NCBI RefSeq assembly: GCF_003018255.1
Contig: NZ_CP027440.1
Reading direction: 5' to 3' (one strand)
DNA length: 64,000 bases
Source: Escherichia coli
GTDB lineage: Bacteria > Pseudomonadota > Gammaproteobacteria > Enterobacterales > Enterobacteriaceae
Numbering within the stretch: the stretch's first letter is position 1; the number at the start of each line of letters is the position of its first letter. Shown here piece after piece: positions 33,801 to 36,800 of the stretch. The position numbers are program-made.

Positions 33801-36800
33801 AGCCCTGCTCACGGGTCAGGTCATACGCCGCTTTGGTGATTGGCAGATAACCGGTTTTCTGATGCCACTCGGCAGCGTTTTCTGGCTTCGCGAGGAAGTC
33901 GAGGAACTTCGCCACGCCGGTATACGTTTCTTTATCTTTGCCCTGCATCACCCACAGGCTGGCCCCGCCGATAATGGCGTTTTGCGGTGCATCTTTCGCA
34001 TCGGCGTCGTAAGGCATCATGCCTACGCCGTAGTTAAATTTGGCGTACTCACGAATGTTGGCAAGCGAACCGGAAGAGGCGGTGGTCATCGCGCAATCAC
34101 CGTTATAGAACTTCTCAGTGGATTCATCCTTACGCCCGACGTAGCTGAAATCGCCCTTCTTGTTCATCTCTTCGAGCATAGCGATGTGTTTCACCTGCTC
34201 CGGCTTGTTGAACTCCAGCACCGCGTCTGTGCCGTCAAAGCCGTTGTTTTTGCTGGCAAACGGCAGACCGTTCCAGGCGCTAAAGTTTTCCAGTTGGATC
34301 CAGCCCTGCCAGCCGCTGGCGTAGCCGCACTTCATACCGGAGGCTTTCAGTTTCGCGGCATAGTCCGCCAGATCCTGCCAGGTTTTCGGCGGCTGTTCCG
34401 GGTCTAAACCGGCTTTCTTGAAGGCGTCTTTGTTGTAATAGAGAACAGGAGTCGAGCTATTGAACGGCTGGGAGAGTAAGTGGCCGGTTTTGCTGTCGGA
34501 GTAGTAGCCTGAAACCGTCGGCACAAACTGCGACTCATCGAACTGAATCCCCGCCTCTTTAAACACGTCATATACCGGTTTAATGGCTTTCGACGCCATC
34601 ATGGTGGCGGTGCCAACTTCATAAACCTGCAAAATAGCCGGCGCGTTGCCGGTACGAAATGCGGCAATCCCCGCGCTTAAATTCTGTTCGTAGTTGCCTT
34701 TATAGGTCGGTACAATTTTGTAATCCGGGTTTTCGGCGTTAAAACGTTGGGCCAGAGAATCCACCTCTTTACCCAGTTCCCCTTCCATAGAATGCCAGAA
34801 CGGAATGGTCGTCACTGCCTGTGCATTCCCCATTAACGCCAGTCCGAGCGCCAGTGCTGAAGCTGTATAATGTAACGGTTTCATCGTTTATCTCTCTTGT
34901 TGTACCGGATGCGCGAATTCACGCTTTTTATGCTCGCGGGGTAACATGACATGCTCGAATTACAGAAAAATAACTTTTTTGTTACATTTGTAAGATAGTA
35001 AGGTGTCAGAAAGATGACAAGGCGGTGACGGCGTGGGTGAGGGAAAATGGGAGATGGGGCACGGATAAAAAGCAGAATGGCTAAGAACCTTGTCAGGTAC
35101 CGCGTTGACGCAAGCGGGTAACGATATCTTCTAACGATACTTTTCCCGCCGCCACATCAACCGTCAATTCTACAAACTCTGGGTTTGCAGCAAGTATGAT
35201 GCCGTTACGTTTAAGGAATAATAGCGTGATAAACAGTGCGGTGCGCTTATTACCATCATTAAAGATATGACCGCGCGAGATTGCCAATAGATGCATCGCC
35301 GCCAGCAGCCAAAGATCAGAAACGCCTTCATACTCATACTTATTCAGTACCCGGTACAAAAGCGCTTCTGCTCGCCCTGGATCGGACATTCCTGTTACAC
35401 CTGGTGTAACGCTAAGCAATTTATCGTGGAAATAAATTATCTCCTCCGCTGAGATAAACTGAATGGTCATTTATCCGCTAACTCCTTAATTTCGCTGCCA
35501 TGAATAGCCATGATGGCGTCAAATTCTGCGTCCAGTTTAGCCTTCTGGTAACGTTCAAACTCTTCTGCGCTGATAATCACAGCTGCCTTATGACCACGCC
35601 TCGTGATCGTTACCGGAGTACCTGTCGCCGCTGTTTCCAGAACTAATGCAAGGTTCTGCCGCGCTTCGCTGTAGTTCATGGTATGCATGATATCCTCCAT
35701 ATTAAGTACAATTAAATTGTACAACTAACAAGTACAAAAAAGGAGTCATTCGACTCCTTTTTACTCAAAATATTATTACCCGCCTAAATACGCACTTCTC
35801 ACCGCTTCGTTCGCCAGCAGCGCATCGCCAGTATCGGAGAGCACCACATGACCGTTTTCCAGCACGTAGCCGCGATCAGCGAGCTTCAGCGCCTGGTTGG
35901 CGTTCTGCTCGACGAGGAAGATGGTCATCCCCTGCTCGCGCAGTTGCTCGATGGTGTCGAAAATTTGCTGGATGATAATCGGTGCCAGTCCGAGCGAGGG
36001 TTCATCAAGCAATAACAAACGTGGGTTACTCATCAAAGCGCGACCAATCGCCAGCATCTGCTGTTCACCGCCGGACATGGTGCCTGCCCGCTGAACACGG
36101 CGTTCATGCAGACGTGGAAACAGTTCATACACCCACTTTATGCGCTCCTGGAACTGGTCGCGTTCAGCAAAAAAGCCGCCCATCGCCAGATTCTCTTCCA
36201 CCGTCATGCGTGAGAAGACGCGACGTCCTTCCGGGACAATCGCCACCGCTTCGCGCATGATTTTCGCCGTCTGCCAGTCGGTAATGTCTTTATCATCAAA
36301 CACAATTCGCCCGCTGGTGGCGCGTGGGTCGCCGCATAACGTGCCGAGCAAGGTGGTTTTCCCCGCCCCGTTCGCGCCAATCAGCGTGACAATTTCGCCC
36401 TGATTGATATGCAGGCTCACCTCATGCAGCGCCTGGATTTTGCCGTAGTGGGCGCTAACTTTGTCAAAGGACAACATGACTTTTTCCATCTTATGCCTCA
36501 CCTAAATAGGCACGGATCACGTCCGGGTTATTACGGATCTGCTCCGGCGTACCGTTTGCCAGCGGCGTCCCCTGATTGACCACGTAAATTCTGTCTGAAA
36601 TCCCCATCACCAGCTTCATATCGTGTTCAATCAACAAGATAGTGGTGTTGTGATGGTTACGCAGTTCGGCAATCAGCTCATCCAGCTCTTTCGTCTCTTT
36701 CGGGTTAAGACCTGCTGCCGGTTCGTCGAGCATTAAAATCTCCGGCTGCGTTACCATGCAGCGGGCGATCTCCAGACGGCGCTGGTCACCGTAGGCCAGG

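What the first reader, a model, noticed from the sequence alone, without database searches (positions are those of the whole stretch)
35093..35724. Phage-P1-like phd-doc toxin-antitoxin pair inserted between ugpB and livF
K-12 has no gene between ugpB and livF. Here a 73-aa Phd-like antitoxin (MHTMNYSEARQNL...) and a 125-aa Doc toxin with the catalytic Fic-type motif HIFNDGNKR are inserted, with the ATGA overlap typical of toxin-antitoxin operons. The gene order (antitoxin first) and both protein lengths match the P1 addiction module. I recall, but cannot verify, a comparable phd-doc pair at this junction in Salmonella Typhimurium. A chromosomal copy could affect persistence or act as an anti-phage or anti-plasmid element.
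Basis: partly seen in the sequence, partly recalled or inferred. Interest (0 to 1): 0.6.

Follow-up and report, generated by a model that had tools for sequence, protein, structure and literature searches.

The report
Chromosomal Phd-Doc toxin-antitoxin pair, already known
This is an intact Phd-Doc toxin-antitoxin gene pair, the E. coli counterpart of a pair already characterised in Salmonella; it is an old resident of the livF-ugpB junction that most E. coli, including K-12, have lost, and it is already annotated in public genomes, so it is ordinary.

Summary
On the minus strand, phd (35688..35467, 73 aa) and doc (35470..35093, 125 aa) overlap by ATGA. Doc carries HIFNDGNKR. Both proteins match the solved P1 Phd and Doc structures over their full length and pass the NCBIfam and Pfam thresholds.

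The interpretation needs two corrections.

- The pair is "P1-like" only at family level: 48% (Doc) and 45% (Phd) identity. Its true counterpart is Salmonella STM3558/STM3559, at 81% and 78% identity and at the same livF-ugpB junction. That Doc is a demonstrated EF-Tu Thr383 kinase, neutralised by its Phd.
- It is probably not an insertion. Every Doc with at least 73% identity found in about 12 Enterobacteriaceae genera lies between livF and ugpB. There are no mobile-element scars, no close donor and no plasmid copies. Divergence is proportional to that of the flanks, and dN/dS is about 0.05.

In E. coli the pair is one of at least three alleles at this site. phd-doc is in 106 of 5,426 complete genomes (2.0%). 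A TPR-gene allele with a Phd C-terminal relic is in 660 (12.2%). The rest are mostly K-12-like, with a 177-bp REP-like segment.

A conserved array of three GTAC cores 13 bp apart is the likely operator; P1 has two. RefSeq already annotates both genes. Interest is low.

The parts
35093..35470 (-). doc: 125-aa Doc toxin (Fic-fold kinase) with motif HIFNDGNKR at residues 69-77
   Evidence: ORF. P1 Doc structure 3k33, E = 7e-32. Pfam PF02661. TIGR01550, 83.1 bits against a cut-off of 38.65. 81.1% identical to Salmonella STM3558. PGAP names it WP_000155159.1.
35467..35688 (-). phd: 73-aa Phd antitoxin, with an N-terminal Phd/YefM DNA-binding domain and a C-terminal Doc-neutralising helix (residues about 52-73)
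   Evidence: ORF. P1 Phd 3hry, E = 1.5e-12 over the full length. Pfam PF02604. TIGR01552. 78.1% identical to STM3559. PhdSTm hot spots F56, I59, M60, H63 and L70 are identical, and L67 is replaced by I. PGAP names it WP_000557315.1.
35467..35470 (-). ATGA overlap of the phd stop and the doc start (translational coupling)
   Evidence: Read directly from the sequence. The same 4-nt overlap is present in all 18 intact syntenic orthologues.
35694..35698 (-). Shine-Dalgarno GGAGG, five nt before the phd ATG
   Evidence: Sequence. A G-rich SD is conserved in the orthologues.
35706..35735 (.). Candidate Phd operator: three GTAC cores 13 bp apart (35706-35709, 35719-35722, 35732-35735). They form two overlapping palindromes, GTACAATTAAATTGTAC and GTACAACTAACAAGTAC.
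   Evidence: Palindromes. The pattern GTAC-N9-GTAC-N9-GTAC occurs once in the window against 0.00 expected. The central TTGTACAAT and third core are conserved in all intact orthologues, and the first core in 16 of 18. P1 has two GTAC cores at the same 13-bp spacing next to its annotated -10. P1 Phd-Doc binds two adjacent palindromic sites (PMC13034048). Binding here is inferred.
35716..35721 (-). Candidate -10 hexamer TACAAT inside the central operator palindrome
   Evidence: Invariant in all intact orthologues. No consensus -35 was found, and the strict promoter scan did not report it. Inference only.
35737..35762 (-). livF intrinsic terminator hairpin (AAAAAGGAGTC-GAAT-GACTCCTTTTT). Its T-tract runs into the first operator core, and it marks the right-hand end of the variable segment.
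   Evidence: Terminator scan. The hairpin is shared with K-12 and an equivalent hairpin is present in Salmonella and Kluyvera.
35069..35738 (.). 670-bp variable segment (the phd-doc allele) at the livF-ugpB junction. It is replaced by a 177-bp REP-like segment in K-12 and by a 1,041-bp TPR-gene segment in O55:H7/O157:H7.
   Evidence: Pairwise blastn of the three alleles. Allele counts.
34885..35068 (-). Conserved ugpB upstream (promoter) region shared by all alleles. It starts 24 bp after the doc stop, with no terminator in between.
   Evidence: 99.2% identical to K-12 over the 244-bp left-hand match (window 34825-35068), which includes this region. No terminator found. The fold is weak, z = -1.6.

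Best explanation
This is a functional chromosomal type II toxin-antitoxin operon, the E. coli orthologue of Salmonella phd-doc (STM3559/STM3558).

Mechanism, inferred by orthology:
- Doc is a Fic-fold kinase. It phosphorylates elongation factor EF-Tu on the conserved threonine (Thr382/383), which stops EF-Tu from delivering aminoacyl-tRNA and arrests translation and growth.
- Phd is made first and is translationally coupled to Doc through the ATGA overlap. Its C-terminal helix (F56...L70) wraps around Doc and blocks it.
- Phd's N-terminal Phd/YefM domain, as a dimer, binds the GTAC palindromes that overlap the promoter and represses the operon. Doc acts as co-repressor or de-repressor depending on the Doc:Phd ratio (conditional cooperativity, as in P1).
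- When labile Phd is degraded faster than it is replaced, free Doc halts growth reversibly.

Evolution:
- The pair is an old resident of the livF-ugpB intergenic region of Enterobacteriaceae and has been inherited mostly vertically.
- In E. coli it survives as a minority allele (2% of complete genomes). Most lineages replaced it with REP-type repeats (the K-12 type) or with a TPR-protein gene (the O157/O55 type).

Shown here: gene anatomy, family membership, orthology and synteny, purifying selection, the conserved operator-like array and the allele frequencies.
Inferred: kinase activity, neutralisation, autoregulation, lability of Phd, and the direction of the evolutionary change.
For: Identity:
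- Full-length matches to the P1 Doc and Phd structures.
- Pfam and NCBIfam hits above their thresholds.
- The motif HIFNDGNKR is invariant across the clade.

Orthology:
- 81.1% (Doc) and 78.1% (Phd) identity to Salmonella Doc and Phd, which lie in the same livF-phd-doc-ugpB order.
- DocSTm phosphorylates EF-Tu T383. It is blocked by PhdSTm, and growth is rescued by EF-Tu T383A/V (PMC9207808).
- Five of the six PhdSTm hot-spot residues are identical and the sixth is a conservative change.

Ancestral position:
- All 18 loci with Doc at 73% identity or more are syntenic. All loci at 59% or less are not.
- The syntenic clade is monophyletic and separate from P1.
- There are no terminal repeats at the junction.
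- No true plasmid copy was found. The only long hit is a 5.4-Mb Klebsiella record, and none of the 106 E. coli copies is on a plasmid.
- The window's module identity to other genera is 72.4 +/- 1.0%. Other genus pairs with equal flank divergence show 73.9 +/- 3.6%.
- The TPR allele carries a Phd C-terminal relic.

Function retained:
- dN/dS is about 0.04-0.08 against the orthologues.
- The ORFs are intact in divergent E. coli carriers, with 0-1 (Phd) and 1-3 (Doc) amino-acid changes.

Operator:
- The triple GTAC array is unique in the window and conserved across genera.
- It has the same 13-bp spacing as P1's two cores.
- P1 is known to use two adjacent palindromes (PMC13034048).
Against: - No experiment exists for the E. 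coli copy, so toxicity, the kinase target and Phd binding all rest on orthology.
- The pair is present in only 2% of E. coli. The scan of species-representative genomes did not find it in the other Escherichia species. An ancestral origin therefore needs several independent losses, or a long-lived presence/absence polymorphism.
- The module's G+C (46-49%) and GC3 are lower than those of the flanks (54-56%). On its own that could suggest foreign origin, but the same gap is seen in every genus.
- Synonymous sites are saturated, so the test for vertical descent rests on overall identity and is coarse. At least one inter-genus exchange has occurred, between Kluyvera georgiana and Salmonella.
- The Phd relic in the TPR allele is about 70% identical to all orthologues and is not specifically closest to the E. 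coli allele.
- No consensus sigma-70 promoter was detected.
Confidence: 0.82

Rival explanations
1. Recent horizontal insertion. A P1- or plasmid-derived phd-doc cassette was inserted into an originally empty ugpB-livF spacer in this E. coli lineage.
For: - Only 106 of 5,426 E. coli genomes carry it.
- It is absent from K-12 and was not detected in the representative genomes of other Escherichia species.
- The module's G+C is lower than that of the flanks.
- TA modules are often mobile (general knowledge; reviews found).
Against: - The same junction is occupied in about 12 genera.
- There are no target-site duplications or terminal repeats.
- K-12 has a replacement segment, not an empty site.
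- Identity to P1 is only 48% and 45%, and P1 belongs to a separate clade.
- The closest non-E. coli module is 79% or less identical at the nucleotide level, so no donor is in sight.
- There are no plasmid copies.
- Carriers lie on at least three flank haplotypes that differ by 4-8%, while the module differs by only 1-3%.
- The TPR allele holds a Phd relic.
Confidence: 0.12
2. Re-acquisition by homologous recombination. Escherichia lost the pair early, and a minority of E. coli regained it through flank-mediated recombination from an unsampled, fairly close enterobacterial lineage.
For: - It is absent from the representative genomes of the other Escherichia species.
- Flank-mediated exchange of this module between genera does happen: Kluyvera georgiana and Salmonella are 92.6% identical in the module against 86% in the flanks.
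- The liv-ugp region of the window's lineage is unusually divergent from other E. coli, at 4-8%.
Against: - No donor was found among about 100,000 species representatives.
- The module's divergence is what an Escherichia-lineage orthologue would be expected to show.
- The module is less divergent among carriers than their flanks are, the opposite of what an imported tract would show.
Confidence: 0.15
3. A decaying relic: the genes are intact by chance but no longer function as a toxin-antitoxin system.
For: - Most E. coli have lost the pair without obvious harm.
- One orthologue, Enterobacter sp. R1, is pseudogenised.
- No consensus promoter was detected.
Against: - dN/dS is about 0.05.
- The catalytic motif and the neutralisation hot spots are invariant.
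- The ORFs are intact in all carriers examined.
- The SD, the ATGA coupling and the operator array are conserved.
Confidence: 0.04

Closest known systems
Salmonella enterica Phd-Doc (STM3559/yhhV - STM3558; PhdSTm/DocSTm)
   Same: - Same livF-phd-doc-ugpB position.
- 81.1% (Doc) and 78.1% (Phd) identity, a 73-aa Phd, the ATGA overlap and an identical HIFNDGNKR motif.
- The same triple-GTAC upstream array abutting the livF terminator.
- Neutralisation hot spots conserved.
- DocSTm is a proven EF-Tu T383 kinase, and deletion of the Salmonella module lowers persister numbers in macrophages (PMC9207808).
   Different: - Doc here is 125 aa against 122 aa, with three extra C-terminal residues.
- Phd L67 is replaced by I.
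- DNA identity is only about 73-75%.
- Salmonella has about 50 more bases between doc and ugpB (259 against 208 bp).
- The pair was found in all three Salmonella records examined here, but it is a 2% minority allele in E. coli.
- The E. coli copy has not been tested experimentally.
Bacteriophage P1 Phd-Doc addiction module
   Same: - Same protein families, gene order and lengths: 73 aa, and 126 against 125 aa.
- Catalytic motif HIFND(A/G)NKR.
- Full-length alignment to the solved structures.
- GTAC-core palindromes 13 bp apart next to the -10 element.
   Different: - Only 48.0% (Doc) and 45.2% (Phd) identity, and a separate clade.
- P1 is on a plasmid prophage, whereas this pair is chromosomal with no mobile-element context.
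- P1 has two operator cores and this locus has three.
- P1's genes overlap by 1 nt and these overlap by 4 nt.
- In P1 the operators lie downstream of a TATAAT -10. Here the only conserved -10-like hexamer lies inside the central palindrome.
Other enterobacterial chromosomal or accessory Doc-Phd pairs (Xenorhabdus, Photorhabdus, Pantoea, Proteus, Yersinia and others)
   Same: A phd gene upstream of doc, the HIFNDGNKR motif, and 50-59% identity.
   Different: They are not at livF-ugpB and they form separate clades.
Canonical Fic AMP-transferases (motif HxFx[D/E]GNGRxxR) and YefM-YoeB
   Same: Doc has the Fic fold and motif core (Pfam PF02661). Phd shares the YefM N-terminal fold (PF02604; YefM 2a6q, E = 5.5e-6).
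   Different: Doc has NKR in place of NGR and lacks the final Arg, which is the kinase-type variant. Phd's C-terminus is specific for Doc rather than YoeB, and the YefM equivalog model scores 33.8 bits against a cut-off of 121.

Membership tests
Doc toxin family (Fic-fold EF-Tu kinase; TIGR01550 / PF02661) | Doc-type Fic motif H-x-F-x-[D/E]-[A/G]-N-K-R | tested here: met
   HIFNDGNKR at residues 69-77, aligned column for column with P1 HIFNDANKR. Invariant in the syntenic clade.
Doc toxin family (Fic-fold EF-Tu kinase; TIGR01550 / PF02661) | Full-length sequence homology to Doc, above the curated family thresholds | tested here: met
   3k33, E = 7e-32 over residues 4-122. TIGR01550, 83.1 bits against 38.65. 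PF02661, 7.7e-10.
Doc toxin family (Fic-fold EF-Tu kinase; TIGR01550 / PF02661) | Phosphorylates EF-Tu Thr382/383 and arrests translation | not testable with these tools
   Shown for the 81%-identical Salmonella orthologue (PMC9207808). Inferred here.
Phd antitoxin (Phd/YefM; TIGR01552 / PF02604) | N-terminal Phd/YefM DNA-binding and dimerisation domain | tested here: met
   PF02604, 1.9e-16 over residues 1-53. TIGR01552, 53.9 bits against 20.8. P1 Phd 3hry, E = 1.5e-12.
Phd antitoxin (Phd/YefM; TIGR01552 / PF02604) | C-terminal Doc-neutralising helix with gatekeeper residues F56 and L70 | tested here: met
   F56, I59, M60, H63, G64 and L70 are identical to PhdSTm, and L67 is replaced by I.
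Phd antitoxin (Phd/YefM; TIGR01552 / PF02604) | Binds palindromic operator sites in its own promoter (autorepression, conditional cooperativity) | tested here: inconclusive
   A conserved triple-GTAC palindromic array lies immediately upstream with P1-like 13-bp spacing. Binding cannot be tested here.
Phd antitoxin (Phd/YefM; TIGR01552 / PF02604) | Proteolytically unstable relative to the toxin (ClpXP in P1) | not testable with these tools
   Established for P1 (general knowledge). Nothing in the sequence bears on it.
Type II toxin-antitoxin operon | Two small adjacent co-oriented genes, antitoxin first, overlapping or coupled | tested here: met
   phd 35688..35467, doc 35470..35093, ATGA overlap.
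Enterobacteriaceae livF-ugpB chromosomal phd-doc orthologue group (STM3559/STM3558 type) | Located between livF and ugpB in the same orientation | tested here: met
   Window. Salmonella. 18 of 18 close homologues across about 12 genera.
Enterobacteriaceae livF-ugpB chromosomal phd-doc orthologue group (STM3559/STM3558 type) | Groups with the syntenic clade rather than with P1 or other Docs | tested here: met
   76-86% identity to syntenic Docs against 59% or less to all others. Monophyletic in an NJ tree (distance tree, no bootstrap).
P1-type plasmid/prophage addiction module | Carried on a plasmid or prophage that it stabilises by post-segregational killing | tested here: not met
   All 106 E. 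coli copies are chromosomal and at one site. No mobile-element repeats. No genuine plasmid copies. The neighbours are core liv and ugp genes.

The most novel reading that the evidence does not exclude
The chromosomal clade differs from the P1 paradigm in its regulation. It has three equally spaced GTAC operator cores where P1 has two, with the only conserved -10-like element inside the central palindrome and the livF terminator directly abutting the array. This may give a different Phd:Doc:DNA stoichiometry for conditional cooperativity. It may also couple expression to read-through from the liv operon and on into the phosphate-regulated ugpB, since there is no terminator after doc. Separately, the resident Phd might neutralise P1/P7-type Doc, which would make the 2% of carrier strains refractory to addiction by P1-like plasmid prophages (anti-addiction). 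There is a precedent: Vibrio chromosomal Phd-Doc cross-talks with P1 (PMC10305079).
Probability: 0.2. Interest if true: 0.4.

Novelty: already known. Interest (0 to 1): 0.15.

Why it matters
The practical significance is small. The genes are already named by NCBI's annotation pipeline, and their Salmonella orthologues have been characterised biochemically.

The useful results of this check are corrective.
- The pair should be labelled as the E. coli orthologue of Salmonella STM3559/STM3558, not as a P1-derived insertion.
- The livF-ugpB spacer is a three-allele polymorphic site in E. coli: phd-doc 2.0%, TPR gene plus Phd relic 12.2%, and REP-type for most of the rest. The toxin-antitoxin pair appears to be the older state.

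This gives a clean natural presence/absence series for asking whether a chromosomal Doc kinase affects persistence, P1-plasmid maintenance or phage outcome in E. coli. It also gives a conserved three-site operator to compare with the two-site P1 model of conditional cooperativity.

Tried and rejected
- **Mobile-element scars.** I searched 34900-35800 for direct and inverted repeats. Only short chance-level repeats turned up, plus the operator palindromes and the terminator. Nothing brackets the 670-bp segment.
- **Relics in K-12.** blastn with word size 7 and tblastn at E up to 10 against the K-12 177-bp segment found nothing. The segment looks like two inverted REP units.
- **Promoter.** The sigma-70 scan found no promoter for phd. 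Reading by eye gave only a conserved TACAAT with no convincing -35, so the promoter stays unassigned.
- **Terminator after doc.** None was found.
- **Recombination tract.** I suspected one because the livF 3' end is 91-93% identical to K-12. The whole liv-ugp region of this lineage turned out to be about 4-8% divergent from every other E. coli haplotype, so this is not specific to the module.
- **Wrong offsets.** The offsets I used for the doc-ugpB spacer and for ugpB were wrong, and those two rows should be ignored. redid the comparison by alignment.
- **dS as a clock.** Synonymous sites in phd-doc are saturated, so I used identity relative to the flanks instead.
- **Defence-system models.** PADLOC gave only weak Fic-domain hits to candidate families for Doc (best 1.4e-9) and none for Phd, so no defence system is assigned.
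- **Rfam.** No RNA family matched in or near the locus.
- **Origin of the Phd relic.** I tried to assign the relic in the TPR allele to a lineage. It is equidistant, at about 70%, from all orthologues, so this is unresolved.
- **Phylogroups.** I did not determine phylogroup or ST for the 106 carriers because no tool here does whole-genome typing.
- **Structure prediction.** I judged it unnecessary, given 48% identity to solved structures and 81% identity to a characterised orthologue.
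Full report
**1. Observation**

On the minus strand, a 73-aa ORF (MHTMNYSEARQNL..., 35688..35467) is followed by a 125-aa ORF (35470..35093). The stop TGA of the first and the ATG of the second share the tetranucleotide ATGA.

The ATG at 35688 is preceded at 5 nt by GGAGG. NCBI's pipeline calls the same start in strain JNE23-011, whose locus is 99.9% identical and collinear with the window coordinate for coordinate.

**2. What the proteins are**

- The 125-aa protein aligns over residues 4-122 with the solved P1 Doc structure (3k33, E = 7e-32). 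HIFNDGNKR (residues 69-77) lies on P1's HIFNDANKR.
- It hits Pfam Fic/DOC and NCBIfam TIGR01550 "DOC_P1" at 83.1 bits against a cut-off of 38.65.
- The 73-aa protein aligns end to end with P1 Phd (3hry, E = 1.5e-12).
- It hits Pfam PhdYeFM and TIGR01552. It fails the YefM equivalog model, at 33.8 bits against 121.

Family membership for both proteins is therefore established by sequence.

**3. The closest relative is Salmonella, not P1**

Identity to P1 is 48.0% for Doc and 45.2% for Phd. Identity to Salmonella STM3558 and STM3559 is 81.1% and 78.1%.

A Salmonella Infantis contig shows the order livM-livG-livF-phd(STM3559, yhhV)-doc(STM3558)-ugpB-ugpA.

The Salmonella proteins have been characterised (PMC9207808):
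- DocSTm phosphorylates EF-Tu on T383 and is blocked by PhdSTm.
- Growth is rescued by EF-Tu T383A/V.
- The neutralising C-terminal helix of PhdSTm depends on F56, I59, M60, H63, L67 and L70. F56 and L70 act as "gatekeepers".

The window's Phd has F56, I59, M60, H63, I67 and L70. The most likely mechanism is therefore translation arrest through EF-Tu phosphorylation, neutralised by the C-terminal helix of Phd. This is inferred by orthology and has not been shown for this copy.

**4. Regulatory anatomy**

Between the livF terminator hairpin (35762..35737) and the SD there are three GTAC cores exactly 13 bp apart, at 35732-35735, 35719-35722 and 35706-35709. They form two overlapping palindromes.

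- The pattern GTAC-N9-GTAC-N9-GTAC occurs once in the 64-kb window, against 0.00 expected from shuffles.
- In coding orientation the motif is tGTAC-N8-TTGTACAAT-N5-nGTAC.
- The central TTGTACAAT and the third core are present in all 18 intact syntenic orthologues. The first core is present in 16 of them.
- P1 has two GTAC cores at the same 13-bp spacing, directly after its annotated -10.
- P1 Phd-Doc is known to engage two adjacent palindromic sites cooperatively (PMC13034048).

I therefore read the array as the Phd operator, with one more site than P1. The only conserved -10-like hexamer (TACAAT, 35721..35716) lies inside the central palindrome. No consensus -35 was found and the strict scan reported no promoter, so the promoter assignment is an inference.

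There is no terminator between the doc stop and the conserved ugpB upstream region, which begins 24 bp later. Read-through into ugpB is possible but untested.

**5. Insertion or ancestral?**

*Three alleles share the flanks.*
- Identity with K-12 and O55:H7 runs up to window 35068 on the ugpB side. It resumes at 35739, at the livF terminator (for K-12).
- The window has 670 bp in between.
- K-12 has a different 177 bp made of REP-like palindromic units.
- O55:H7/O157:H7 has 1,041 bp carrying a TPR-protein gene.

So K-12 is not an "empty site", and nothing resembling a target-site duplication or terminal repeat brackets the module.

*Other genera.* A scan of one genome per bacterial species found 74 Doc-encoding loci.
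- All 18 with at least 73% identity have livF upstream and phd-doc in place, and 17 show ugpB downstream. The 18th sits on a short contig that ends before ugpB.
- These come from Leclercia, Kluyvera (3), Lelliottia, Salmonella, Citrobacter, Phytobacter, a Klebsiella MAG, Buttiauxella, Franconibacter, Siccibacter, Enterobacter (2), "Escherichia sp. ESNIH1" and unnamed Enterobacteriaceae.
- None of the loci with 59% identity or less has livF or ugpB nearby.
- The syntenic Docs form one clade, separate from P1.

*Selection and divergence.*
- dN/dS against the orthologues is about 0.04-0.08. Synonymous sites are saturated.
- The module has low GC3 (about 45-60%) compared with the flanks (about 62-80%) in every genus, not only in E. 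coli.
- The window module's nucleotide identity to other genera is 72.4 +/- 1.0%. Other genus pairs with comparable flank divergence show 73.9 +/- 3.6%.
- So the E. coli copy is about as diverged as an Escherichia-lineage orthologue should be, and there is no close donor.
- One pair, Kluyvera georgiana and Salmonella, is 92.6% identical in the module against 86% in the flanks. Occasional flank-mediated exchange therefore does occur.

*Plasmids.* No genuine plasmid carries this clade. The one long hit in the plasmid collection is a 5.4-Mb Klebsiella record.

**6. Distribution in E. coli**

- The module is in 106 of 5,426 complete genomes, once each, always chromosomal. The same number of genomes covers a query that spans both flanks.
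- The TPR allele is in 660 genomes, or 12.2%. Most of the rest are K-12-like.
- The TPR allele contains a 50-aa ORF (L002 1348..1196). Its last 24 residues, AKLDAEFAAIFALHGKEFWRLAGR, are colinear with Phd residues 50-73 at 15 of 24 identical positions. It ends at the phd stop position, and doc is entirely missing.
- This relic argues that the site was once occupied in that lineage as well. It is equidistant from all orthologues, so it does not settle the history.
- Divergent carriers (SC434 from soil, A25, Z1323HEC0355, O84:H7 Trh52) have intact ORFs with 0-1 (Phd) and 1-3 (Doc) amino-acid changes. Their modules differ from the window by 1-3%, while their livF, livG and ugpB flanks differ by 4-8%.
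- The allele therefore sits on several flank backgrounds and is not more foreign than its surroundings.

Against a simple ancestral story, the representative genomes of the other Escherichia species did not show the pair. Either several losses occurred, or an old presence/absence polymorphism or a re-acquisition by recombination must be assumed. I put about 0.7 on "ancestral and mostly lost" and about 0.25-0.3 on some form of secondary acquisition.

**7. Comparison with what is known, and novelty**

The locus is a member of the Doc and Phd families, with every sequence-testable feature met. It belongs to the Enterobacteriaceae livF-ugpB orthologue group typified by STM3559/STM3558. It is not a P1-type mobile addiction module, because the mobile-context feature was tested and not met.

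RefSeq already labels the two proteins (WP_000155159.1 and WP_000557315.1) as a death-on-curing family toxin and a Phd/YefM antitoxin. The Salmonella paper notes conservation of the gatekeeper residues in E. coli Phd. The finding is therefore already known.

The modest new points are the polarity of the change, the three-allele structure of the site, and the conserved three-core operator. Defence-system models give only weak Fic-domain hits and Rfam finds nothing at the locus. Roles in persistence, anti-addiction or phage defence remain speculation for E. coli. The only precedents are the Salmonella macrophage-persister phenotype (PMC9207808) and Vibrio-P1 cross-talk (PMC10305079).

**8. Verdict**

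Interest is low (0.15).

Noticed in passing
L002 1196-2091 (E. coli O55:H7 CB9615; same livF-ugpB junction as window 35069-35738): A third allele of the junction is present in 660 of 5,426 E. coli genomes, including O157:H7. It holds a 248-aa TPR-repeat protein gene, followed with a 4-nt overlap by a 50-aa ORF. The C-terminal 24 residues of that ORF are a relic of the Phd Doc-binding helix. doc is absent. The function of the TPR protein is unknown, and it has no PADLOC hit.
   Followed up: partly
window 33393-33566 (ugpA-ugpB spacer): An element of about 174 bp that K-12 lacks; K-12 has a 97-bp spacer here. It has G+C-rich, mutually inverted ends (CCCCTCACCCCGGCCCTCTCCCCAGAGGGG ... CCCCTCTCCCTTTGGGAGAGGGTTAGGGTGAGGG), which looks like a small palindromic repeat or MITE-type element. 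Copy number and family were not determined.
   Followed up: partly
L013 (Kluyvera georgiana) vs L015/L005 (Salmonella), positions about 2700-3370: The phd-doc module and its operator are 92.6% identical between Kluyvera georgiana and Salmonella, while the livF and ugpB flanks are 86% identical. This signals an inter-genus exchange of the module by recombination through the conserved flanks.
   Followed up: partly
L049 (Enterobacter sp. R1(2018)) 2788-3273: The syntenic phd-doc is pseudogenised here. Both ORFs are truncated to about 35 aa and the operator is degraded. This is an example of in-situ decay of the locus.
   Followed up: partly
window 33900-37200 (ugpB, livF, livG): The window's lineage differs from every other E. 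coli haplotype examined by about 4-8% in livF and livG, and by 2-9% per 100 bp in parts of ugpB. This holds for carriers and non-carriers alike. All 33-38 differences in livF are synonymous (dS 0.23-0.27), which is high for within-species comparisons. The cause was not pursued; it could be a divergent lineage or an old recombination tract.
   Followed up: partly
L004 (E. coli ETEC1731) 1896-3038: In this strain a deletion joins a truncated ggt directly to the livF downstream region, which removes yhhA, the whole ugp operon and the junction.
   Followed up: no
window 1-6900: A seven-gene chaperone-usher fimbrial operon lies next to glgP, as annotated in the collinear genome JNE23-011. I did not check whether this is an accessory island relative to K-12.
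   Followed up: no
window 24177-24241 (minus strand): RyhB small RNA (Rfam RF00057, 83.1 bits) between yhhX and yhhY. It was the only Rfam match in the window.
   Followed up: no
window about 26681 (yrhA-yrhD region): The IS1A copy that K-12 carries between yrhA and yrhD is absent from the window. In the collinear genome yrhA is longer and yrhD is annotated as partial.
   Followed up: no
H108, CP125156.1 (plasmid collection): A 5.37-Mb Klebsiella pneumoniae record filed in the plasmid collection is evidently a chromosome. It carries a phd-doc module 72% identical to the window's, so K. pneumoniae also has a member of this clade. Its flanks were not examined.
   Followed up: no
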